Positions 43,533 to 50,020 of a DNA stretch of 64,000 bases are shown in pieces. Position 1 is the stretch's first letter; the number at the start of each line of letters is the position of its first letter. The position numbers and the translations under genes are program-made. Source of the stretch: Escherichia phage arall; sequence record MN850584.1; one strand, 5' to 3'. Below the pieces are notes generated by a model. The model ran no database searches. It was not told where the DNA came from and saw only the letters and a list, made by a program, of their open reading frames with translations.

Positions 43533-43561
43533 TTGACTTTAGATCTATCTGTATGTAGAGT
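43533..43561 (+). promoter_or_regulatory. sigma70-like promoter (TTGACT-N17-TAGAGT)
   Basis: -35/-10 hexamers with 17-nt spacer downstream of AT-rich UP-like region. Confidence 0.45.
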
Positions 43562-43600
43562 AGAAAACATAAAGTCCGAACTCAACTAAGGAGATAAACA

Positions 43601-44494
43601 ATGAAAGTTAGTATTCTACATGGTGTTGACTGTTATGTTACTGATGTAGACGTTAAAGTCTTTACATTCTCTGGTGGAGAACAACATGTTCAACTAGATA
43701 CGAATCTATCAGGTTTCAATCATGCTACAGACAGAATCTTACTCTCTTTAGAAGTAAGATCTGCTAAAGACTTGATGACTTTGGTTATGACTAAGAATGC
43801 ATTGGACAATATGCTATATCATAAACCATATTGTGTTGATTTGCTCATGTTGTATGTGCCATATGCACGACAAGACAGAGTGTGTGAACCTGGGGAAGCA
43901 TTCGGAGTTAAAGCATTTGCTTCTATAATTAATTCATTAAATTTCTCACGTGTTATCGTTGCTGATCCACATAGTGATGTTACTCCAGCGGTGTTTGACA
44001 GACTCTGTGTAATACCTCAAGAAGAGATTGCTTACGAAACTTTAAAGTGGAAGTTACGTATGGAGAATTTTGCTCTTGTTAGTCCTGATGGTGGTGCTCT
44101 TAAGAAAATATTTAAATTATCTAAGAAAATGTCTTTAGATGTGTTCTGTGCAGAGAAGGTTAGAGATACTGCAACAGGTGCTATTGTTCGTACAGACATT
44201 TCTGTACAGGATTTCAATAAGCGTAACCTGATGATCGTAGATGATATCTGTGACGGCGGTAGAACTTTTATTGAATTGGCTAAAGTGCTACGTGCTCGTA
44301 ACGCAGGTAAGATTGAGTTATATGTTACACACGGTATCTTTTCTAAAGGTCTTAAAGAGTTAAGTGAGCACTTTGACTGCATTCATTCTCTTAATGTGTG
44401 GGAAGATAACATCCAAGAAGATTCCGGTGTTCTTGTTAAGAATCAGTCAGATTTGCAACAACAAATTGTATCTCCATACGTGTGGAATTTTTAA
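43601..44494 (+). CDS. PRPP-synthetase-like phosphoribosyl pyrophosphokinase (candidate ADP-ribose pyrophosphokinase, Adps-like)
   Basis: 297 aa; VPYARQDR, VSPDGGALKK, IVDDICDGGRT motifs; RBS AAGGAGA. Confidence 0.8.
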   Translation: MKVSILHGVDCYVTDVDVKVFTFSGGEQHVQLDTNLSGFNHATDRILLSLEVRSAKDLMTLVMTKNALDNMLYHKPYCVDLLMLYVPYARQDRVCEPGEAFGVKAFASIINSLNFSRVIVADPHSDVTPAVFDRLCVIPQEEIAYETLKWKLRMENFALVSPDGGALKKIFKLSKKMSLDVFCAEKVRDTATGAIVRTDISVQDFNKRNLMIVDDICDGGRTFIELAKVLRARNAGKIELYVTHGIFSKGLKELSEHFDCIHSLNVWEDNIQEDSGVLVKNQSDLQQQIVSPYVWNF

Positions 44495-44504
44495 ATAATA
44501 AGTG

Positions 44505-44533
44505 TTGACAATAGGGAGTATGCTTAGTAAGAT
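44505..44533 (+). promoter_or_regulatory. sigma70-like promoter (TTGACA-N17-TAAGAT)
   Basis: consensus -35 with 17-nt spacer. Confidence 0.45.
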
Positions 44534-44565
44534 ACTCCCACACTAACAAACAAGGAGACATAACT

Positions 44566-46299
44566 ATGAATATTTTTGCACCTTTTGCTACTGATTGGTA
44601 TAAACCTGGTCACAAGCAGATGTACAACCAAAATACAAAACTCATTTTCTCTAATTTAACTCCTCGTAATGATAAAAACTTTGCACACTATGCAGATCGT
44701 GAAGCACGTGGTGTAATTGTTTTAGGTATTCGTCGAGCAGTTACTGATGCTCTTGTAACTATGTGGGATAGCTTCTTTAAAATGTCTCGTAGTGCAGCAG
44801 TAAATAAGTTTTATCGTATGTCTAAAAATGCATTAGGTGCTTCTTCTCCTTCTGCTGAATGTTGGGGAGAATTGCACGATTTAGGTTATCTTCCGCTGGA
44901 AGTTCGATCTCTGCCAGAAGGTGTTTTGTGTCCTATTGGTGTTCCTGTGTTTACTGTGCATAATACTTTAGAAAAATTCTTTTGGTTAACTAACTATGTG
45001 GAAACACTATTGTCAGATGAAACTTGGAAGACAATGACTAATGCTACAGCAGCTTTTCAGTATAAGCGTATTGCTATGGCATATGCGATGGCAACGTGTG
45101 ATAATATTGATCACGTTAACTTCCAGTGTCATGATTTTAGCCTACGTGGTTTAAGTAATATTGAAGATGGTTATAAGAGTGGTATCGCTCATTTGGCATC
45201 GTTCACAGGCACAGATAATATTCTGGCTATTGAAACTGTGCATGATTATTATGGTATTGATTATGATCAGTTTGTTGCAGGTTCTATTCCGGCAACAGAA
45301 CATTCAGTAGCAACGACTAACATTGGAGCTATTGTTGAAGATCTGAAGAAACATTTCCCACATCTTAAAGATGATGTTGATGGGCTTCGTTATGTAGCAG
45401 AGAAAGAGTTTCTTCGCCGCTATATTGAAGAAATTGTTCCAGAAGGTTTTTGTTCATATGTAGCAGATTCTTATGATTACTGGGCTGTCTTGACTCGCAT
45501 TCTGGTAGAATTGAAAGAGTCCATTATGTCACGAAATGGTCGTCTTGTTATTCGTCCAGATTCAGGAGATCCGGTTAAAGTTGTTGCAGGATACAATGTT
45601 GAATCTTTTGCTAACTATGAAGACCTTTTAAATAATGGTATTGCTACAGCCACTGAAGTAGTTCATTTGGCTGATGTTAATAAGTATTACAATGTTCTTC
45701 AGGATTGCAGTGTTGCTGATTGTATTGATGAAACTTATGAGATTCCTTATTGTGAAGCAGTAGGTTCTATTCAAATCCTTTGGGAAGTGTTTGGTGGTAC
45801 TATCAACCGAAAAGGCTACAAGGTTCTTGATCAGCACATCGGTATGATTTATGGTGATTCTATTACTGTTGAACGAGAACACGAGATCTTACGCCGACTG
45901 AAGAAGAAAGGTTTTGCAGCTTCCAATATTGTATTTGGTGTTGGTAGTTATACTTATCAGTTCAATACACGAGATACTTTTGGTTTTGCTGTTAAAGCAA
46001 CAGGTAGTATCATCGGTGAACACGAAATTTTGGTAAGTAAGGAGCCTAAAACTGATCCTGGTAAACGCTCTGCAAAAGGTTTTATTAAGGTTGTTAAGGA
46101 TACAAATGGTAAACTTTCTCTTGTGGATAATCTTTCTTTTAAAGATATTCAAGATGAAGACAATGAGTTAAAAGTTATCTTCAGGGATGGTACGGTTATT
46201 ACACCACAAGTAGAAGGACGTGATGAAACATTTACTGATATCCGCAACCGTGTTGATGTAGAGGTTCTTCGTACTATGGGAACCATCCAGGTTGACTAA
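44566..46299 (+). CDS. nicotinamide phosphoribosyltransferase-like (NadV/NAMPT family; candidate Namat)
   Basis: 577 aa; N-terminal FATDWYKPGHKQMY and overall NAMPT-like organisation; RBS AAGGAGA. Confidence 0.8.
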   Translation: MNIFAPFATDWYKPGHKQMYNQNTKLIFSNLTPRNDKNFAHYADREARGVIVLGIRRAVTDALVTMWDSFFKMSRSAAVNKFYRMSKNALGASSPSAECWGELHDLGYLPLEVRSLPEGVLCPIGVPVFTVHNTLEKFFWLTNYVETLLSDETWKTMTNATAAFQYKRIAMAYAMATCDNIDHVNFQCHDFSLRGLSNIEDGYKSGIAHLASFTGTDNILAIETVHDYYGIDYDQFVAGSIPATEHSVATTNIGAIVEDLKKHFPHLKDDVDGLRYVAEKEFLRRYIEEIVPEGFCSYVADSYDYWAVLTRILVELKESIMSRNGRLVIRPDSGDPVKVVAGYNVESFANYEDLLNNGIATATEVVHLADVNKYYNVLQDCSVADCIDETYEIPYCEAVGSIQILWEVFGGTINRKGYKVLDQHIGMIYGDSITVEREHEILRRLKKKGFAASNIVFGVGSYTYQFNTRDTFGFAVKATGSIIGEHEILVSKEPKTDPGKRSAKGFIKVVKDTNGKLSLVDNLSFKDIQDEDNELKVIFRDGTVITPQVEGRDETFTDIRNRVDVEVLRTMGTIQVD

Positions 46300-47045: not shown

Positions 47046-47121
47046 GGTTCCATAGCTCACTGACGAGAGCGCACACCTCATAAGTGTCGAGGGCAGGGAT
47101 TGTAACCCTGGGGAACCACCA
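47046..47121 (+). tRNA. tRNA-Met/Ile2 (anticodon CAT), non-canonical T-loop ATTGTAA
   Basis: hand-folded cloverleaf: acceptor GGTTCCA/GGGAACC (one A.G), D-arm GCTC-ACTGACGA-GAGC, anticodon loop CTCATAA, T-stem CAGGG/CCCTG, CCA encoded. Confidence 0.55.
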
Positions 47122-47240: not shown

Positions 47241-47346
47241 GCCTAGTAGGGTATTTGGTAATTCCGAGGCCATCAAAGCCTGAAAAATATGTTAGACCGC
47301 TTTGTCTAACTAAATACGAAATATGGTTCGATTCCATAACTAGGCT
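47241..47346 (+). other. atypical over-long tRNA-like gene (106 nt)
   Basis: perfect 7-bp acceptor GCCTAGT/ACTAGGC and canonical T-arm TATGG-TTCGATT-CCATA, but about 30 nt too much between them, including a 7-bp hairpin GTTAGAC-CGCTTT-GTCTAAC. Confidence 0.35.
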
Positions 47347-47379: not shown

Positions 47380-47408
47380 TTGACATTTACTTAGTTTTTT
47401 GTTATAGT
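47380..47408 (+). promoter_or_regulatory. sigma70 consensus promoter (TTGACA-N17-TATAGT)
   Basis: near-consensus hexamers ending 12 nt upstream of tRNA-like gene at 47420. Confidence 0.55.
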
Positions 47409-47419
47409 CGTTATGAAAA

Positions 47420-47501
47420 CGGGGTGTATCTCACCTGACTTCTAATCAGGCGTTAACCGAGTAATTGGAGTATGCAGGTTCGAATCCTGTCACCCCGGCC
47501 A
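47420..47501 (+). other. atypical tRNA-like gene with anticodon hairpin TCT (Arg-type) and no recognisable D-arm
   Basis: perfect acceptor CGGGGTG/CACCCCG + CCA, T-arm GCAGG-TTCGAAT-CCTGT, anticodon arm CCTGA-CTTCTAA-TCAGG; only 7 nt (TATCTCA) where D-arm should be; 23-nt variable region with GNRA-capped stem. Confidence 0.4.
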
Positions 47502-47519: not shown

Positions 47520-47549
47520 TTGACAAGCAAGATAGTTTTATGTTAGATT
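47520..47549 (+). promoter_or_regulatory. sigma70-like promoter (TTGACA-N17/18-TTAGAT)
   Basis: hexamers upstream of tRNA-Ser. Confidence 0.4.
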
Positions 47550-48313: not shown

Positions 48314-48320
48314 GAATTAT

Positions 48321-48397
48321 GGACTTGTAGAGTTAAGGTAAAACCCCAGTCGCCAAGAGGCTTCTGGAATTGCAGGTATCGAATCCTGTCGAGTCCA
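48321..48397 (+). pseudogene. degenerate tRNA-like element (possible tRNA pseudogene)
   Basis: acceptor-like GGACTTG/CGAGTCC and T-arm-like GCAGG-TATCGAAT-CCTGT (8-nt loop); no D-arm or anticodon arm found. Confidence 0.3.
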
Positions 48398-48839: not shown

Positions 48840-48869
48840 TTGACAAAGTGGCTAATAATATGTTAGAGT
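48840..48869 (+). promoter_or_regulatory. sigma70-like promoter (TTGACA-N18-TAGAGT)
   Basis: hexamers upstream of tRNA-Gly. Confidence 0.4.
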
Positions 48870-49879: not shown

Positions 49880-49956
49880 ATAAATACCTCCCTTCTGGTG
49901 TAATGATTAAATTGCATTGACACTTCAAGGAACTCATAGCCGGGTAGATTTAAAAG

Positions 49957-50020
49957 AGTATGGTACTCAATATGGCTCCAAACCATAGATCAAGGGGTTC
50001 GATTCCTCACCTTGCTGCCA
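49957..50020 (+). other. short (64 nt) tRNA-like gene with anticodon hairpin CCA (Trp-type), no D-arm
   Basis: anticodon arm TATGG-CTCCAAA-CCATA, T-arm AGGGG-TTCGATT-CCTCA, 3' CCTTGCT-G-CCA pairs with AGTATGG (6/7); only 7 nt (TACTCAA) in D-arm position. Confidence 0.35.

What the first reader, a model, noticed from the sequence alone, without database searches (positions are those of the whole stretch)
47420..47501. tRNA-like genes with perfect acceptor, anticodon and T arms but no D-arm (also 49957..50020)
Two elements in the cluster have textbook acceptor stems, 5-bp/7-nt anticodon hairpins (TCT and CCA) and canonical TTCGA T-loops with encoded CCA, yet only about 7 nt (TATCTCA / TACTCAA) where the 16-18 nt D-arm belongs. 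The first also has a 23-nt variable region capped by a GNRA loop. D-armless tRNAs are known from animal mitochondria, not phages. Alternatives are pseudogenes, decoys for tRNA-targeting defenses, or a hand-folding error.
Basis: seen in the sequence. Interest (0 to 1): 0.6.

Follow-up and report, generated by a model that had tools for sequence, protein, structure and literature searches.

The report
Phage tRNAs with rewired cores
Two unannotated genes in this phi92-like coliphage belong to widespread, phage-only families of arginine and tryptophan tRNAs whose inner core is wired differently from the standard cloverleaf, which matters because bacterial-type tRNAs are generally thought to follow that one cloverleaf fold.

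Summary
The window is a phi92-like coliphage (Justusliebigvirus).

**Element 1 (47420-47501, anticodon UCU)** is real as described.
- It has 7-bp acceptor, anticodon and T arms, and no D hairpin. Rfam tRNA scores it 38.6 bits; ARAGORN misses it.
- It is not simply D-armless. Across 53 distinct relatives from very different phages, CUC (47430-32) pairs with GAG (47459-61) in every sequence, using all four Watson-Crick pair types.
- This helix is followed by a D-loop-like strand, UAAUUGGAGUAU.
- Every family member carries an arginine anticodon.

**Element 2** was read in the wrong register. The gene is 49938-50020.
- A covarying 3-bp helix joins the long 5' connector to the variable region.
- G73 and CCA are present throughout the family.

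Both families are essentially confined to phages.

The best reading is functional tRNA-Arg and tRNA-Trp with non-canonical cores. Expression and charging are inferred, not shown. I found no published description.

The parts
47380..47408 (+). sigma-70-like promoter TTGACA-17-TATAGT with a TG extension, 11 nt upstream of element 1
   Evidence: It is the best promoter match in the region, 11 of 12 positions. Its function is inferred.
47420..47426 (+). Element 1: acceptor stem, 5' strand (CGGGGUG)
   Evidence: It pairs with 47491-47497. In the family, 98.9% of cells are paired and all 7 pairs show double changes.
47427..47429 (+). Element 1: UAU connector (U8, A9, and a U proposed to sit opposite U47462)
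   Evidence: Invariant in 53 of 53 sequences, but my extraction filter required TAT here. The 3D role is inferred.
47430..47432 (+). Element 1: helix X, 5' strand (CUC), taking the place of the D-stem 3' strand
   Evidence: Columns 11-13 pair with columns 42-40 in 53 of 53 sequences. Pair 12-41 is UA 33, GC 11, AU 7, CG 2. It ranks 5th among all column pairs in the mutual-information scan.
47433..47433 (+). Element 1: A opposite C47458, a non-Watson-Crick layer analogous to 26-44
Evidence: Columns 14-39 covary as A.C (31) versus C.A (10).
47434..47450 (+). Element 1: anticodon arm CCUGA-CUUCUAA-UCAGG, anticodon UCU at 47441-47443
   Evidence: 94.3% of cells paired, and all 5 pairs show double changes. 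Family anticodons are UCU 48, UCG 2, CCU 2, ACG 1.
47451..47458 (+). Element 1: conserved linker or bulge CGUUAACC
   Evidence: C32, U34, A36 and A37 are invariant in A1. Its role is unknown.
47459..47461 (+). Element 1: helix X, 3' strand (GAG), taking the place of the D-stem 5' strand
47462..47473 (+). Element 1: D-loop-like single strand UAAUUGGAGUAU (proposed U13, A14, A15, U16, U17, G18, G19, A20 ... A21, U48)
   Evidence: It is also kept in all true members found with a 5'-only search anchor. GGA is kept in the diverged members L180, L205 and L100. The numbering is inferred.
47474..47490 (+). Element 1: T arm GCAGG-UUCGAAU-CCUGU
   Evidence: 98.9% of cells paired. The loop was part of the search anchor.
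47491..47501 (+). Element 1: acceptor 3' strand CACCCCG, then G73, then encoded CCA
   Evidence: In the family the discriminator is G 24, A 24, U 4, C 1, and CCA is encoded in 30 of 53.
49938..49945 (+). Element 2: acceptor stem, 5' strand, 8 nt (AGCCGGGU).
   Evidence: It pairs with 50009-50016. Pairs 3-80, 6-77 and 8-75 covary; the 8th pair is UA 15, UG 4, AU 3, CG 1, GC 1 with none unpaired. RNAalifold finds the stem independently.
49947..49949 (+). Element 2: helix Y, 5' strand (GAU)
   Evidence: It pairs with 49989-49991. Pair 11-56 is CG 8, GC 7, AU 6, UA 2, and it is the top covarying pair of the whole alignment.
49950..49955 (+). Element 2: extra connector loop UUAAAA (family consensus YUWAA)
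49956..49968 (+). Element 2: short D arm GAGU-AUGGU-ACUC, with GG in the loop
   Evidence: The stem covaries (GAGC/GCUC, UCAC/GUGA, GGGU/ACCC and others). RNAalifold predicts it.
49971..49987 (+). Element 2: anticodon arm UAUGG-CUCCAAA-CCAUA, anticodon CCA at 49978-49980
   Evidence: 92.5% of cells paired, and 4 of 5 pairs show double changes.
49989..49991 (+). Element 2: helix Y, 3' strand (AUC)
49994..50008 (+). Element 2: T arm with a 4-bp stem, GGGG-UUCGAUU-CCUC
   Evidence: 100% of cells paired. A fifth pair is unpaired in 21 of 24 sequences.
50009..50020 (+). Element 2: acceptor 3' strand ACCUUGCU, then G73, then encoded CCA
   Evidence: G73 in 24 of 24, CCA in 22 of 24, A1-U72 in 21 of 24.

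Best explanation
Both loci are genuine phage tRNA genes with a non-canonical core. Element 1 is a tRNA-Arg(UCU) and element 2 is a tRNA-Trp(CCA).

Element 1 (82 nt, 47420-47501)
- It keeps the acceptor/T-arm minihelix (7+5 bp), which is the part RNase P, the CCA enzyme and EF-Tu use. It also keeps a standard anticodon arm.
- The D domain is re-threaded.
  - The strand right after U8-A9 (U-CUC-A) runs straight into the anticodon stem, as residues 22-26 do in a normal tRNA.
  - Its partner (C-GAG-U) comes after the anticodon arm.
  - That partner is followed by AAUUGGAGUA-U, which reads like D-loop residues A14, R15, G18, G19, A20, A21 and then U48, entering the T stem.
- The net effect resembles a circular permutation of residues 10-47, cut in the D-loop.
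- The stack has ten layers (U.U, 3 bp, A.C, 5 bp), the same number as D stem + 26 + anticodon stem. An L-shape of normal dimensions is therefore plausible.
- It would be charged by host ArgRS (C35, U36/G36, an A after GG). It would read AGA/AGG, which the phage uses heavily and E. coli serves poorly.

Element 2 (83 nt, 49938-50020)
- It has an 8/4 acceptor/T branch and a short D hairpin.
- An extra 3-bp helix between the lengthened 5' connector and the variable region closes off the D and anticodon arms.

Shown versus inferred
- Shown: the secondary structures, their conservation, covariation, the link between anticodon and identity, and restriction to phages.
- Inferred: transcription, processing, charging, decoding and the 3D equivalences.
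- Also inferred: the selective reason. My guess is escape from host nucleases or enzymes that recognise the normal tRNA core.
For: Element 1
- Rfam tRNA hit at 38.6 bits with the D arm deleted.
- 232 GenBank phage records carry it over at least 80% of its length. They span Justusliebigvirus, Felixounavirus, Kuravirus, Asteriusvirus, Vequintavirinae and Streptomyces phages.
- The flanks are unrelated while the 81-82-nt element is kept.
- The full structure is 94.2% paired, with covariation score 0.740 against 0.184 for shuffles and at most 0.15 for slid partners. Helix X is paired in 159 of 159 cells, with 29 double changes.
- In an unbiased mutual-information scan, pair 12-41 sits among the acceptor and anticodon pairs.
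- The search anchor contained no anticodon, yet all 53 members have Arg anticodons from two codon boxes.
- In tRNA-rich contigs the element usually supplies an Arg anticodon that the canonical Arg tRNAs of the same cluster lack (L021, L041, L089, L077).
- The window has no other tRNA-Arg or tRNA-Trp.
- AGA is 27% of Arg codons in the window's long ORFs.
- A strong promoter lies 11 nt upstream.
- The canonical T5-type tRNA-Arg(UCU) shares the acceptor and T-arm sequences.

Element 2
- The structure is 91.5% paired, covariation score 0.761 against 0.191 for shuffles.
- The top mutual-information pair of the whole alignment is in helix Y.
- G73, A1-U72 and CCA match the TrpRS identity set (identity rules are from established knowledge).
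- The same 8/4+Y scaffold occurs with GCA+U73 and UCC+U73. In these the discriminator matches what Cys and Gly identity requires.

Both elements
- They are nearly absent from cellular genomes. There were 4 hits, all on short metagenome-assembled contigs with phage-like tRNA arrays, and none in 5,426 E. coli genomes.
- E. coli HisRS, EF-Tu and the ribosome accept an engineered tRNA lacking the D arm (PMC11551756).
Against: - There is no expression, processing, modification or aminoacylation data for either RNA.
- Helices X and Y are only 3 bp. RNAalifold does not predict them, so they rest on covariation alone.
- Much of the D-loop-like motif and the T-loop was part of the first search anchor. 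The 5'-anchored control covers only CUC-type members.
- The window's element 2 has a C-U mismatch and a G-U pair in the middle of its acceptor stem. No convincing promoter lies directly upstream.
- One contig (L079) carries both a canonical and a rewired tRNA-Arg(UCU), so the rewired form is not always a simple gap-filler.
- One 8/4+Y member with a UUU anticodon has U73 rather than the A73 expected for Lys.
- The 3D equivalences cannot be tested with these tools.
Confidence: 0.65

Rival explanations
1. These are structured tRNA mimics that are not used in translation. They could be decoys that soak up host anticodon nucleases or other tRNA-binding defence or modification proteins. Alternatively they could be processing or regulatory elements within the tRNA cluster transcript.
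For: - The anticodon loop is the most conserved part: CUUCUAA in 44 of 53 members.
- Phage tRNAs are known to counter tRNA-cleaving defences such as PtuAB, AriB and P2-OLD (PMC12445682; PMC11555353).
- Retron Eco2 cuts host tRNA-Arg, among others (PMC12916289).
- L079 carries a canonical tRNA-Arg(UCU) alongside the rewired one.
- Some irregular 8/4 tRNAs studied by Mukai et al. were charged but not used in translation, or were not charged at all (PMC5389517).
- The cluster lies next to NAD-salvage genes, which may serve counter-defence.
Against: - A decoy for one nuclease would keep a single anticodon loop. Here the scaffold carries UCU, CCU, UCG and ACG, which share only arginine identity.
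- In the 8/4+Y class the discriminator changes with the anticodon as aminoacyl-tRNA synthetase rules require: G73 with Trp, U73 with Cys and Gly.
- The 12-bp acceptor/T branch, the discriminator and the frequently encoded CCA are all maintained. None of these is needed for an anticodon-loop decoy.
- The elements fill anticodon gaps in phage tRNA sets.
Confidence: 0.22
2. These are truly D-armless tRNAs of the mitochondrial type: a floppy connector replaces the D arm, and element 1 has a GNRA-capped extra arm.
For: - The single-sequence MFE fold of 47420-47501 reproduces this model exactly.
- The Rfam alignment deletes the D arm in both elements.
Against: - The GNRA hairpin is 70.6% paired with one double change. 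It is mutually exclusive with helix X, which is paired in 53 of 53 sequences.
- The acceptor register proposed for element 2 pairs at chance level (53.6%), and a D hairpin exists there.
Confidence: 0.05
3. These are decaying tRNA pseudogenes or gene fragments left by deletions in the cluster.
For: - Default tRNA finders fail on both.
- The Rfam score of element 2 is below threshold.
- The window's element 2 has acceptor mismatches.
- tRNA fragments are common in prokaryotic genomes (bioRxiv 10.1101/2022.07.05.498093, listed).
Against: - Element 1's length is fixed at 81-82 nt. Element 2's family varies over a narrow range, 80-86 nt.
- Both show many compensatory changes and are conserved across unrelated phage families with unrelated flanks.
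- The novel helices covary.
- Anticodons are restricted to one amino acid.
Confidence: 0.02

Closest known systems
Canonical phage tRNA-Arg(UCU), e.g. T5-type (Escherichia phage DT571/2, tRNA-Arg(UCU))
   Same: The acceptor stem is nearly identical (CGGGGUG / CACCYCG). U8-A9, the anticodon loop CUUCUAA, the T arm GCAGG-UUCGAAU-CCUGU, G73 and CCA are shared. The presumed role is also the same: supplying the AGA/AGG decoder.
   Different: The T5 tRNA has an ordinary D hairpin (GUCU-AAGGGAG-AGGC) and a 5-nt variable loop. Element 1 has no D hairpin. Its D-stem-like helix is formed across the anticodon arm, and the D-loop-like strand lies 3' of that arm.
D-armless metazoan mitochondrial tRNAs (e.g. 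tRNA-Ser(AGY/UCU); reviewed in PMC7609411) and the engineered 'mini HisT' in E. coli (PMC11551756)
   Same: There is no hairpin between the acceptor and anticodon stems, and the anticodon branch is extended. The mini HisT work shows that bacterial HisRS, EF-Tu and ribosomes can use such a tRNA.
   Different: - The mitochondrial forms are shortened. They lack the D-loop/T-loop contact and have degenerate T-loops.
- Element 1 is full length (82 nt) and has a canonical T-loop.
- It also has a covarying replacement helix and a GG-containing strand that could make the elbow contact.
- It is encoded by viruses of bacteria.
(8/4) tRNAs and allo-tRNAs (Mukai et al. 2017, PMC5389517)
   Same: Element 2 has the 8-bp acceptor plus 4-bp T stem (12 bp in all). 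That paper reports this branch for tRNA-Ser and tRNA-His of some phages. It also reports an '(8/4) tRNA with an extra loop (E-loop)' from soil metatranscriptomes.
   Different: - The reported 8/4 species are Ser, His, Cys and Sec types. The allo-tRNA and SelC* groups have long V-arms, and allo-tRNAs have tRNA-Sec-like D arms.
- Trp is not mentioned in that paper.
- Element 2 has a 6-nt variable region, a 4-5-bp D stem with a 3-5-nt loop, a 10-nt connector and the extra helix Y.
- I could not check whether their E-loop corresponds to this connector loop, because the figure and supplement are not held.
Permuted tRNA genes of Cyanidioschyzon merolae and other algae (from my own knowledge: Soma et al. 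2007)
   Same: The idea that tRNA segments can be encoded in a circularly permuted order.
   Different: - In those genes the whole gene is permuted at the acceptor ends. It is processed through a circular intermediate into a mature tRNA of canonical connectivity.
- Here the 5' and 3' ends are normal.
- The altered order is internal and would persist in the mature RNA.

Membership tests
Canonical cloverleaf tRNA (Rfam RF00005) | Score at or above the curated gathering threshold (29 bits) | tested here: inconclusive
   Element 1 scores 38.6 bits and passes. Element 2 scores 22.9 bits and fails, and the match is in a wrong register.
Canonical cloverleaf tRNA (Rfam RF00005) | D-arm hairpin placed two nucleotides after a 7-bp acceptor stem | tested here: not met
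   Element 1 has no hairpin there: 15 model positions are replaced by 4 nt, and a long-range helix X takes its place. Element 2 has a D hairpin, but it lies 10 nt after an 8-bp acceptor.
Canonical cloverleaf tRNA (Rfam RF00005) | 5-bp anticodon stem with a 7-nt loop, and a T arm with a UUCRANY loop | tested here: met
   Both elements have them. The T stem is 5 bp in element 1 and 4 bp in element 2.
D-armless (mitochondrial-type) tRNA | No D-stem pairing at all: a short unpaired connector replaces the arm | tested here: not met
   Helix X is paired in 53 of 53 sequences and covaries. Element 2 has a covarying D hairpin.
D-armless (mitochondrial-type) tRNA | Encoded in metazoan mitochondrial genomes, usually shortened and with a degenerate T-loop | tested here: not met
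   These are genes of tailed phages. They are 82-83 nt long with canonical UUCGA T-loops.
(8/4) tRNAs (Mukai et al. 2017) | 8-bp acceptor stem plus 4-bp T stem | tested here: met
   This applies to element 2 only. The 8th pair covaries with no sequence unpaired. The would-be fifth T pair is unpaired in 21 of 24.
(8/4) allo-tRNA subgroup | Long variable arm and a tRNA-Sec-like long D stem with a tetraloop | tested here: not met
   The variable region is 5-7 nt. The D stem is 3-5 bp with a 3-9-nt loop.
tRNA-Arg (substrate of bacterial ArgRS) | C35 with U36 or G36 (identity rule from established knowledge) | tested here: met
   53 of 53 family members qualify: UCU 48, UCG 2, CCU 2, ACG 1.
tRNA-Arg (substrate of bacterial ArgRS) | A20 in the D-loop; actual arginylation | not testable with these tools
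   An A follows GG in every member, including diverged ones. However, it sits in a relocated strand. Charging needs an experiment.
tRNA-Trp (substrate of bacterial TrpRS) | CCA anticodon, G73 and A1-U72 (identity rule from established knowledge) | tested here: met
   G73 is present in 24 of 24 and A1-U72 in 21 of 24. The CCA anticodon was part of my selection filter, so it is not independent evidence. Charging was not tested.
Permuted tRNA genes (algal type) | The 3' half is encoded upstream of the 5' half, and the mature tRNA has canonical connectivity | tested here: not met
   The acceptor 5' and 3' strands are in normal order at the ends of both elements.
tRNA pseudogene or fragment | Loss of pairing, variable truncation, no compensatory change | tested here: not met
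   Element 1's family is fixed at 81-82 nt and element 2's ranges 80-86 nt. Both are 92-94% paired with abundant double changes.

The most novel reading that the evidence does not exclude
Tailed phages have evolved at least two classes of fully functional tRNAs whose core topology differs from the universal cloverleaf, and they spread them horizontally.
- One class is an Arg-specific scaffold. Its D/anticodon domain is in effect circularly permuted, with a three-way junction in place of the four-way junction.
- The other is an 8/4 scaffold with an extra closing helix, used for Trp, Cys, Gly and other amino acids.

Both would still fold into a working L-shape that host synthetases, EF-Tu and ribosomes accept. 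Both would be selected because they are invisible to host defences or turnover enzymes that recognise the normal tRNA core.
Probability: 0.45. Interest if true: 0.9.

Novelty: new variant of a known kind. Interest (0 to 1): 0.8.

Why it matters
[quoted passage not shown] The only exceptions reported in the papers I read are the shifted 8/4 and 9/3 branches (PMC5389517). A natural, widespread tRNA used in E. coli and Streptomyces infections that has no D hairpin, only a re-threaded D domain, would be a new tRNA architecture.
- **It raises testable questions.** One can ask how ArgRS (which reads A20), RNase P, EF-Tu, the ribosome and D-loop or position-8 modification enzymes cope with a different core.
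- **It may point to a selective pressure.** One can also ask whether phages use such cores to escape tRNA-directed immunity.
- **It has practical consequences.**
  - Standard annotation misses or mislabels these genes. Examples are 'tRNA-OTHER', 'tRNA-Val(aac)' and spurious short ORFs.
  - Phage tRNA repertoires and codon-supply analyses are therefore biased.
  - The scaffolds could serve as orthogonal tRNA chassis.

Tried and rejected
**Structural models rejected**
3. A fourth Watson-Crick pair in helix X (columns 14-39) is unpaired in 42 of 53 sequences. It behaves as an A.C / C.A layer instead.
4. RNAalifold consensus folding does not return the 3-bp helices X and Y, so they cannot be claimed on energy grounds.

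**Searches that found little or nothing**
5. ARAGORN in default mode finds neither element. On a few relatives it gives over-long 91-96-nt 'tRNA-Arg' calls.
6. No Rfam family other than generic tRNA matches.
7. Nine literature searches found nothing on phage tRNAs without a D arm, permuted D stems or phi92 tRNAs. A tenth attempt was rejected for a syntax error.
8. The supplement of Mukai et al. is not held, so the 'E-loop' could not be compared.

**Other points**
9. The promoter idea for element 2 fails. TTGACA at 49917-22 is 22 nt from TAGATT, which is too far, and the scan lists no promoter there.
10. A first, narrow IMG/VR pattern for element 2 gave mostly chance hits.
11. I did not use the protein-oriented tools, because nothing here is protein-coding.
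Full report
**Source and setting**

The window is 99.7% identical over this region to Escherichia phage AV123. It is 96-98% identical to phi92 and other Justusliebigvirus phages. ARAGORN finds 15 tRNA genes between 47046 and 50101. None is at the two loci in question, and none is for Arg or Trp. Neither locus is annotated in AV123 or phi92. In AV123 the cluster follows genes for PRPP synthetase and nicotinamide phosphoribosyltransferase.

**Element 1: checking the observation**

- The sequence at 47420-47501 reads CGGGGUG UAU CUC A CCUGA CUUCUAA UCAGG CGUUAACC GAG UAAUUGGAGUAU GCAGG UUCGAAU CCUGU CACCCCG G CCA.
- Rfam's tRNA model matches it above threshold: 38.6 bits against a gathering score of 29, E 7e-6 for the 3.4-kb region. 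It does so by deleting the D arm (15 positions replaced by 4 nt) and inserting 20 nt before the T arm.

**Element 1 belongs to a large family**

- A sensitive blastn search found the element over at least 80% of its length in 232 GenBank phage records.
- The hosts are unrelated groups: Felixounavirus, Kuravirus, the jumbo phage PBECO4, Mydovirus and other Vequintavirinae, a 110-kb Klebsiella phage (annotated 'tRNA-OTHER') and Streptomyces phage Yaboi (annotated 'tRNA-Val(aac)').
Flanking sequences are unrelated, while an element of fixed length (81-82 nt) is kept.
- I aligned 53 distinct members (A1).

**What the family shows**

- Acceptor, anticodon and T stems are full of compensatory changes.
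- The three bases after the invariant UAU (columns 11-13; CUC in the window) pair with three bases in the supposed variable region (columns 42-40; GAG) in 53 of 53 sequences.
  - Pair 12-41 is UA 33, GC 11, AU 7, CG 2.
  - Pair 13-40 is CG 45, GC 4, UA 4.
- At least ten different helix sequences occur: CUC/GAG, CGC/GCG, CAC/GUG, CGU/ACG, CCC/GGG, CAG/CUG, CGG/CCG, UCC/GGA, CUU/AAG and CAU/AUG.
- An all-against-all mutual-information scan, made without any structural assumption, ranks 12-41 fifth of all column pairs, among the acceptor and anticodon pairs. It also shows that columns 14-39 covary as A.C versus C.A.
It is only 70.6% paired, with one double change. It is therefore rejected.
Helix X rests on covariation, not on energy.

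**Reading the anatomy (inference)**

- The strand U-CUC-A runs directly into the 5' strand of the anticodon stem, as residues 22-26 do in a normal tRNA.
- The partner strand C-GAG-U runs away from the anticodon stem, as 44 and 10-13 do.
- It continues as AAUUGGAGUA-U into the T stem. This reads like A14, R15, Y16, Y17, G18, G19, A20 ... A21, then U48.
- Counting U.U, three pairs, A.C and five anticodon-stem pairs gives ten stacked layers. That equals D stem + 26.44 + anticodon stem in a normal tRNA.
- The molecule therefore looks like a tRNA whose residues 10-47 are circularly permuted at the D-loop. This turns the four-way junction into a three-way junction and keeps the parts that make the elbow.
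- I cannot test the three-dimensional claim with these tools.
- The GGAGUAU and T-loop columns were part of my first search anchor.
  - A second scan anchored only on the 5' half recovered members that all keep GAGUAAnnGGAGUAU.
  - Three diverged members found later keep GGA.

**Evidence that element 1 is a working tRNA-Arg**

- The first anchor contained no anticodon, yet all 53 members carry arginine anticodons: UCU 48, UCG 2, CCU 2, ACG 1. These share only C35 and U/G36, the ArgRS identity bases (established knowledge).
- In contigs with large tRNA arrays, the element usually supplies an Arg anticodon that the canonical Arg tRNAs of the same array lack. One contig, L079, has both a canonical and a rewired UCU species.
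- The window has no other tRNA-Arg.
- AGA makes up 27% of Arg codons (11.5 per 1000) in the window's long ORFs. From my own knowledge it is rare in E. coli.
- The best sigma-70-type promoter of the region (TTGACA-17-TATAGT with TG, 11 of 12) ends 11 nt upstream.
- The canonical tRNA-Arg(UCU) of T5-type phages shares element 1's acceptor and T-arm sequences almost exactly, but it has a normal D arm. This suggests the two forms are related by replacement of the central part.
- The family is phage-specific.
  - One exact-pattern scan of 185,579 species genomes gave four true members. All were on short metagenome-assembled contigs with phage-like tRNA arrays.
  - 5,426 complete E. coli genomes gave no match.

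**Element 2: the register was wrong**

There is a U-U mismatch in the acceptor and an A-A mismatch in the T stem.
- Relatives from Klebsiella, Citrobacter, Pectobacterium and Hafnia phages, from a GenBank record labelled Listeria phage LPML1, and from IMG/VR show that GAGU-AUGGU-ACUC (49956-49968) is a covarying hairpin with GG in its loop. It is a short D arm.
- The strand that pairs with the 3' acceptor strand lies further upstream, AGCCGGGU at 49938-49945.
- On 24 distinct sequences (A2) the corrected structure is 91.5% paired, with covariation score 0.761 against 0.191 for shuffles.
  - The acceptor has eight pairs. The eighth is UA 15, UG 4, AU 3, CG 1, GC 1, with none unpaired.
  - The T stem has four pairs. 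A fifth would be unpaired in 21 of 24.
- RNAalifold and the single-sequence fold independently give the 8-bp acceptor, the D hairpin and the 4-bp T stem.

**Element 2 has an extra helix**

- Between the acceptor and the D stem there are ten nucleotides (A GAU UUAAAA) instead of two.
- Positions 2-4 of this connector pair with three bases of the variable region (AUC, 49989-49991).
  - Pair 11-56 is CG 8, GC 7, AU 6, UA 2.
  - Pair 10-57 is GC 15, AU 7, UA 1.
  - Pair 12-55 is UA 13, CG 5, with 5 unpaired.
- Pair 11-56 is the single strongest covarying pair in the whole alignment.
- Helix Y thus closes off the D and anticodon arms.
- Identity features fit tryptophan: G73 in 24 of 24, A1-U72 in 21 of 24, CCA encoded in 22 of 24 (rules from established knowledge). 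The CCA anticodon itself was my selection filter.
- A covariance model of this family finds members in contigs fetched for element 1. Both odd tRNAs co-occur in Justusliebigvirus, in Felixounavirus (L004: 402-483 and 684-766) and in one further group.
- The same 8/4+Y scaffold also occurs with GCA and U73 (two contigs), UCC and U73, and UUU. For Cys and Gly the discriminator is the one their synthetases need. This argues for real charging.
- Weak points for the window's copy are a conserved C-U mismatch at pair 4 of the acceptor and the lack of a convincing promoter directly upstream.

**Comparison with what is known**

- Nine literature searches found no description of phage tRNAs lacking a D hairpin or with a relocated D domain.
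[quoted passage not shown] It also shows that E. coli HisRS, EF-Tu and the ribosome accept an engineered D-armless tRNA, with PNPase-dependent degradation as the barrier (PMC11551756).
- Mukai et al. described 8/4 tRNA-Ser and tRNA-His in some phages, and an 8/4 tRNA with an unexplained 'extra loop' in soil metatranscriptomes (PMC5389517). Element 2 shares the 8/4 branch and may be related to the latter. I could not check this.
- Mitochondrial D-armless tRNAs share only the absence of a hairpin (PMC7609411).
- Algal permuted tRNA genes mature into normal tRNAs (my own knowledge).
- Phage tRNAs are known to replace host tRNAs cut by defence nucleases, and to resist those nucleases through small structural changes (PMC12445682; PMC11555353). 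Retron Eco2 cuts host tRNA-Arg, among others (PMC12916289). This makes escape from core-recognising enzymes a reasonable, untested motive.

**Verdict**

- Both loci are members of conserved, phage-restricted tRNA families with non-canonical cores. I am about 90% confident in the secondary structures as described.
- That they are charged and decode AGA/AGG and UGG is the best-supported reading, at about 65%.
- A non-translating mimic or decoy remains possible, at about 20%.
- Pseudogenes are excluded for practical purposes.
- I rate this a new variant of a known kind, of high interest to tRNA and phage biologists. The caveat is that nothing has been shown experimentally, and an earlier description outside the searched library cannot be ruled out.

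Noticed in passing
window 47241-47346: A third unannotated tRNA-like sequence.
- It has a perfect 7-bp acceptor (GCCUAGU/ACUAGGC), a canonical T arm (UAUGG-UUCGAUU-CCAUA) and a D-like region with GG.
- It has a 4-bp stem with loop CAUCAAA (a possible UCA anticodon, with A at position 33) and a 7-bp hairpin in a roughly 39-nt variable region.
- It ends in UCA rather than CCA.
- ARAGORN and Rfam both miss it. The fold z-score is -3.24.
   Followed up: partly
window 48320-48397: A tRNA-like RNA. It has acceptor GGACUUG/CGAGUCC and a T arm whose loop has 8 nt (UAUCGAAU). The body shows no recognisable 7-nt anticodon loop. The fold z-score is -3.41. It has no Rfam or ARAGORN hit.
   Followed up: partly
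window 47046-47121: ARAGORN calls a tRNA-Met(CAU) here, but the Rfam tRNA model does not match it even at E<=10. Its T-loop reads AUUGUAA. The phi92 record labels it 'hypothetical tRNA'.
   Followed up: no
L271 11056-11137; L209 1905-1986; L258 6576-6654; L241 814-896: The 8/4 plus helix-Y architecture of element 2 also occurs with other anticodons. These are GCA with U73 (Cys-like, two contigs), UCC with U73 (Gly-like) and UUU. It is therefore a general phage scaffold, not one specific to Trp.
   Followed up: partly
L217, L232, L250, L251, L265, L248 (IMG/VR): A further subfamily of phage tRNA-Trp(CCA). It has the same T arm but a 7-bp acceptor and a long variable hairpin, for example GUC-GUUU-GAC.
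   Followed up: no
L224, L274, L187, L258, L283, L285, L199, L266 (element-2 family): Several members have a mismatch (often C.A) at the loop-closing pair of the anticodon stem. This leaves a 4-bp stem. A 2026 paper links 4-bp anticodon stems in tRNA-Trp(CCA) to UGA reading (PMC13092985, abstract listed). The window's own copy has 5 bp.
   Followed up: no
L012 395-473 (Streptomyces phage Yaboi); L007 401-482 (Klebsiella phage Roth37); L009 451-540 (Proteus phage Mydo): Public records mislabel element-1 family members. Labels include 'tRNA-Val(aac)' and 'tRNA-OTHER'. In other records a small hypothetical ORF with a ribosome-binding site is laid over the element.
   Followed up: yes
L079 1522-1598 and about 1611-1692: One IMG/VR contig carries a canonical tRNA-Arg(UCU) right next to a rewired one. 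The two forms are therefore not always alternatives.
   Followed up: partly
window 47380-47408, 47520-47549, 48840-48869: Three near-consensus sigma-70-type promoters (TTGACA, 17-18 nt, TAKAKT, each with a TG extension) lie inside the tRNA cluster. They precede element 1, tRNA-Ser(UGA) and tRNA-Gly.
   Followed up: partly
upstream of the cluster (AV123 138460-141158; roughly window 43560-46260): Genes annotated as ribose-phosphate pyrophosphokinase and nicotinamide phosphoribosyltransferase (NAD salvage) lie immediately before the tRNA cluster.
   Followed up: no
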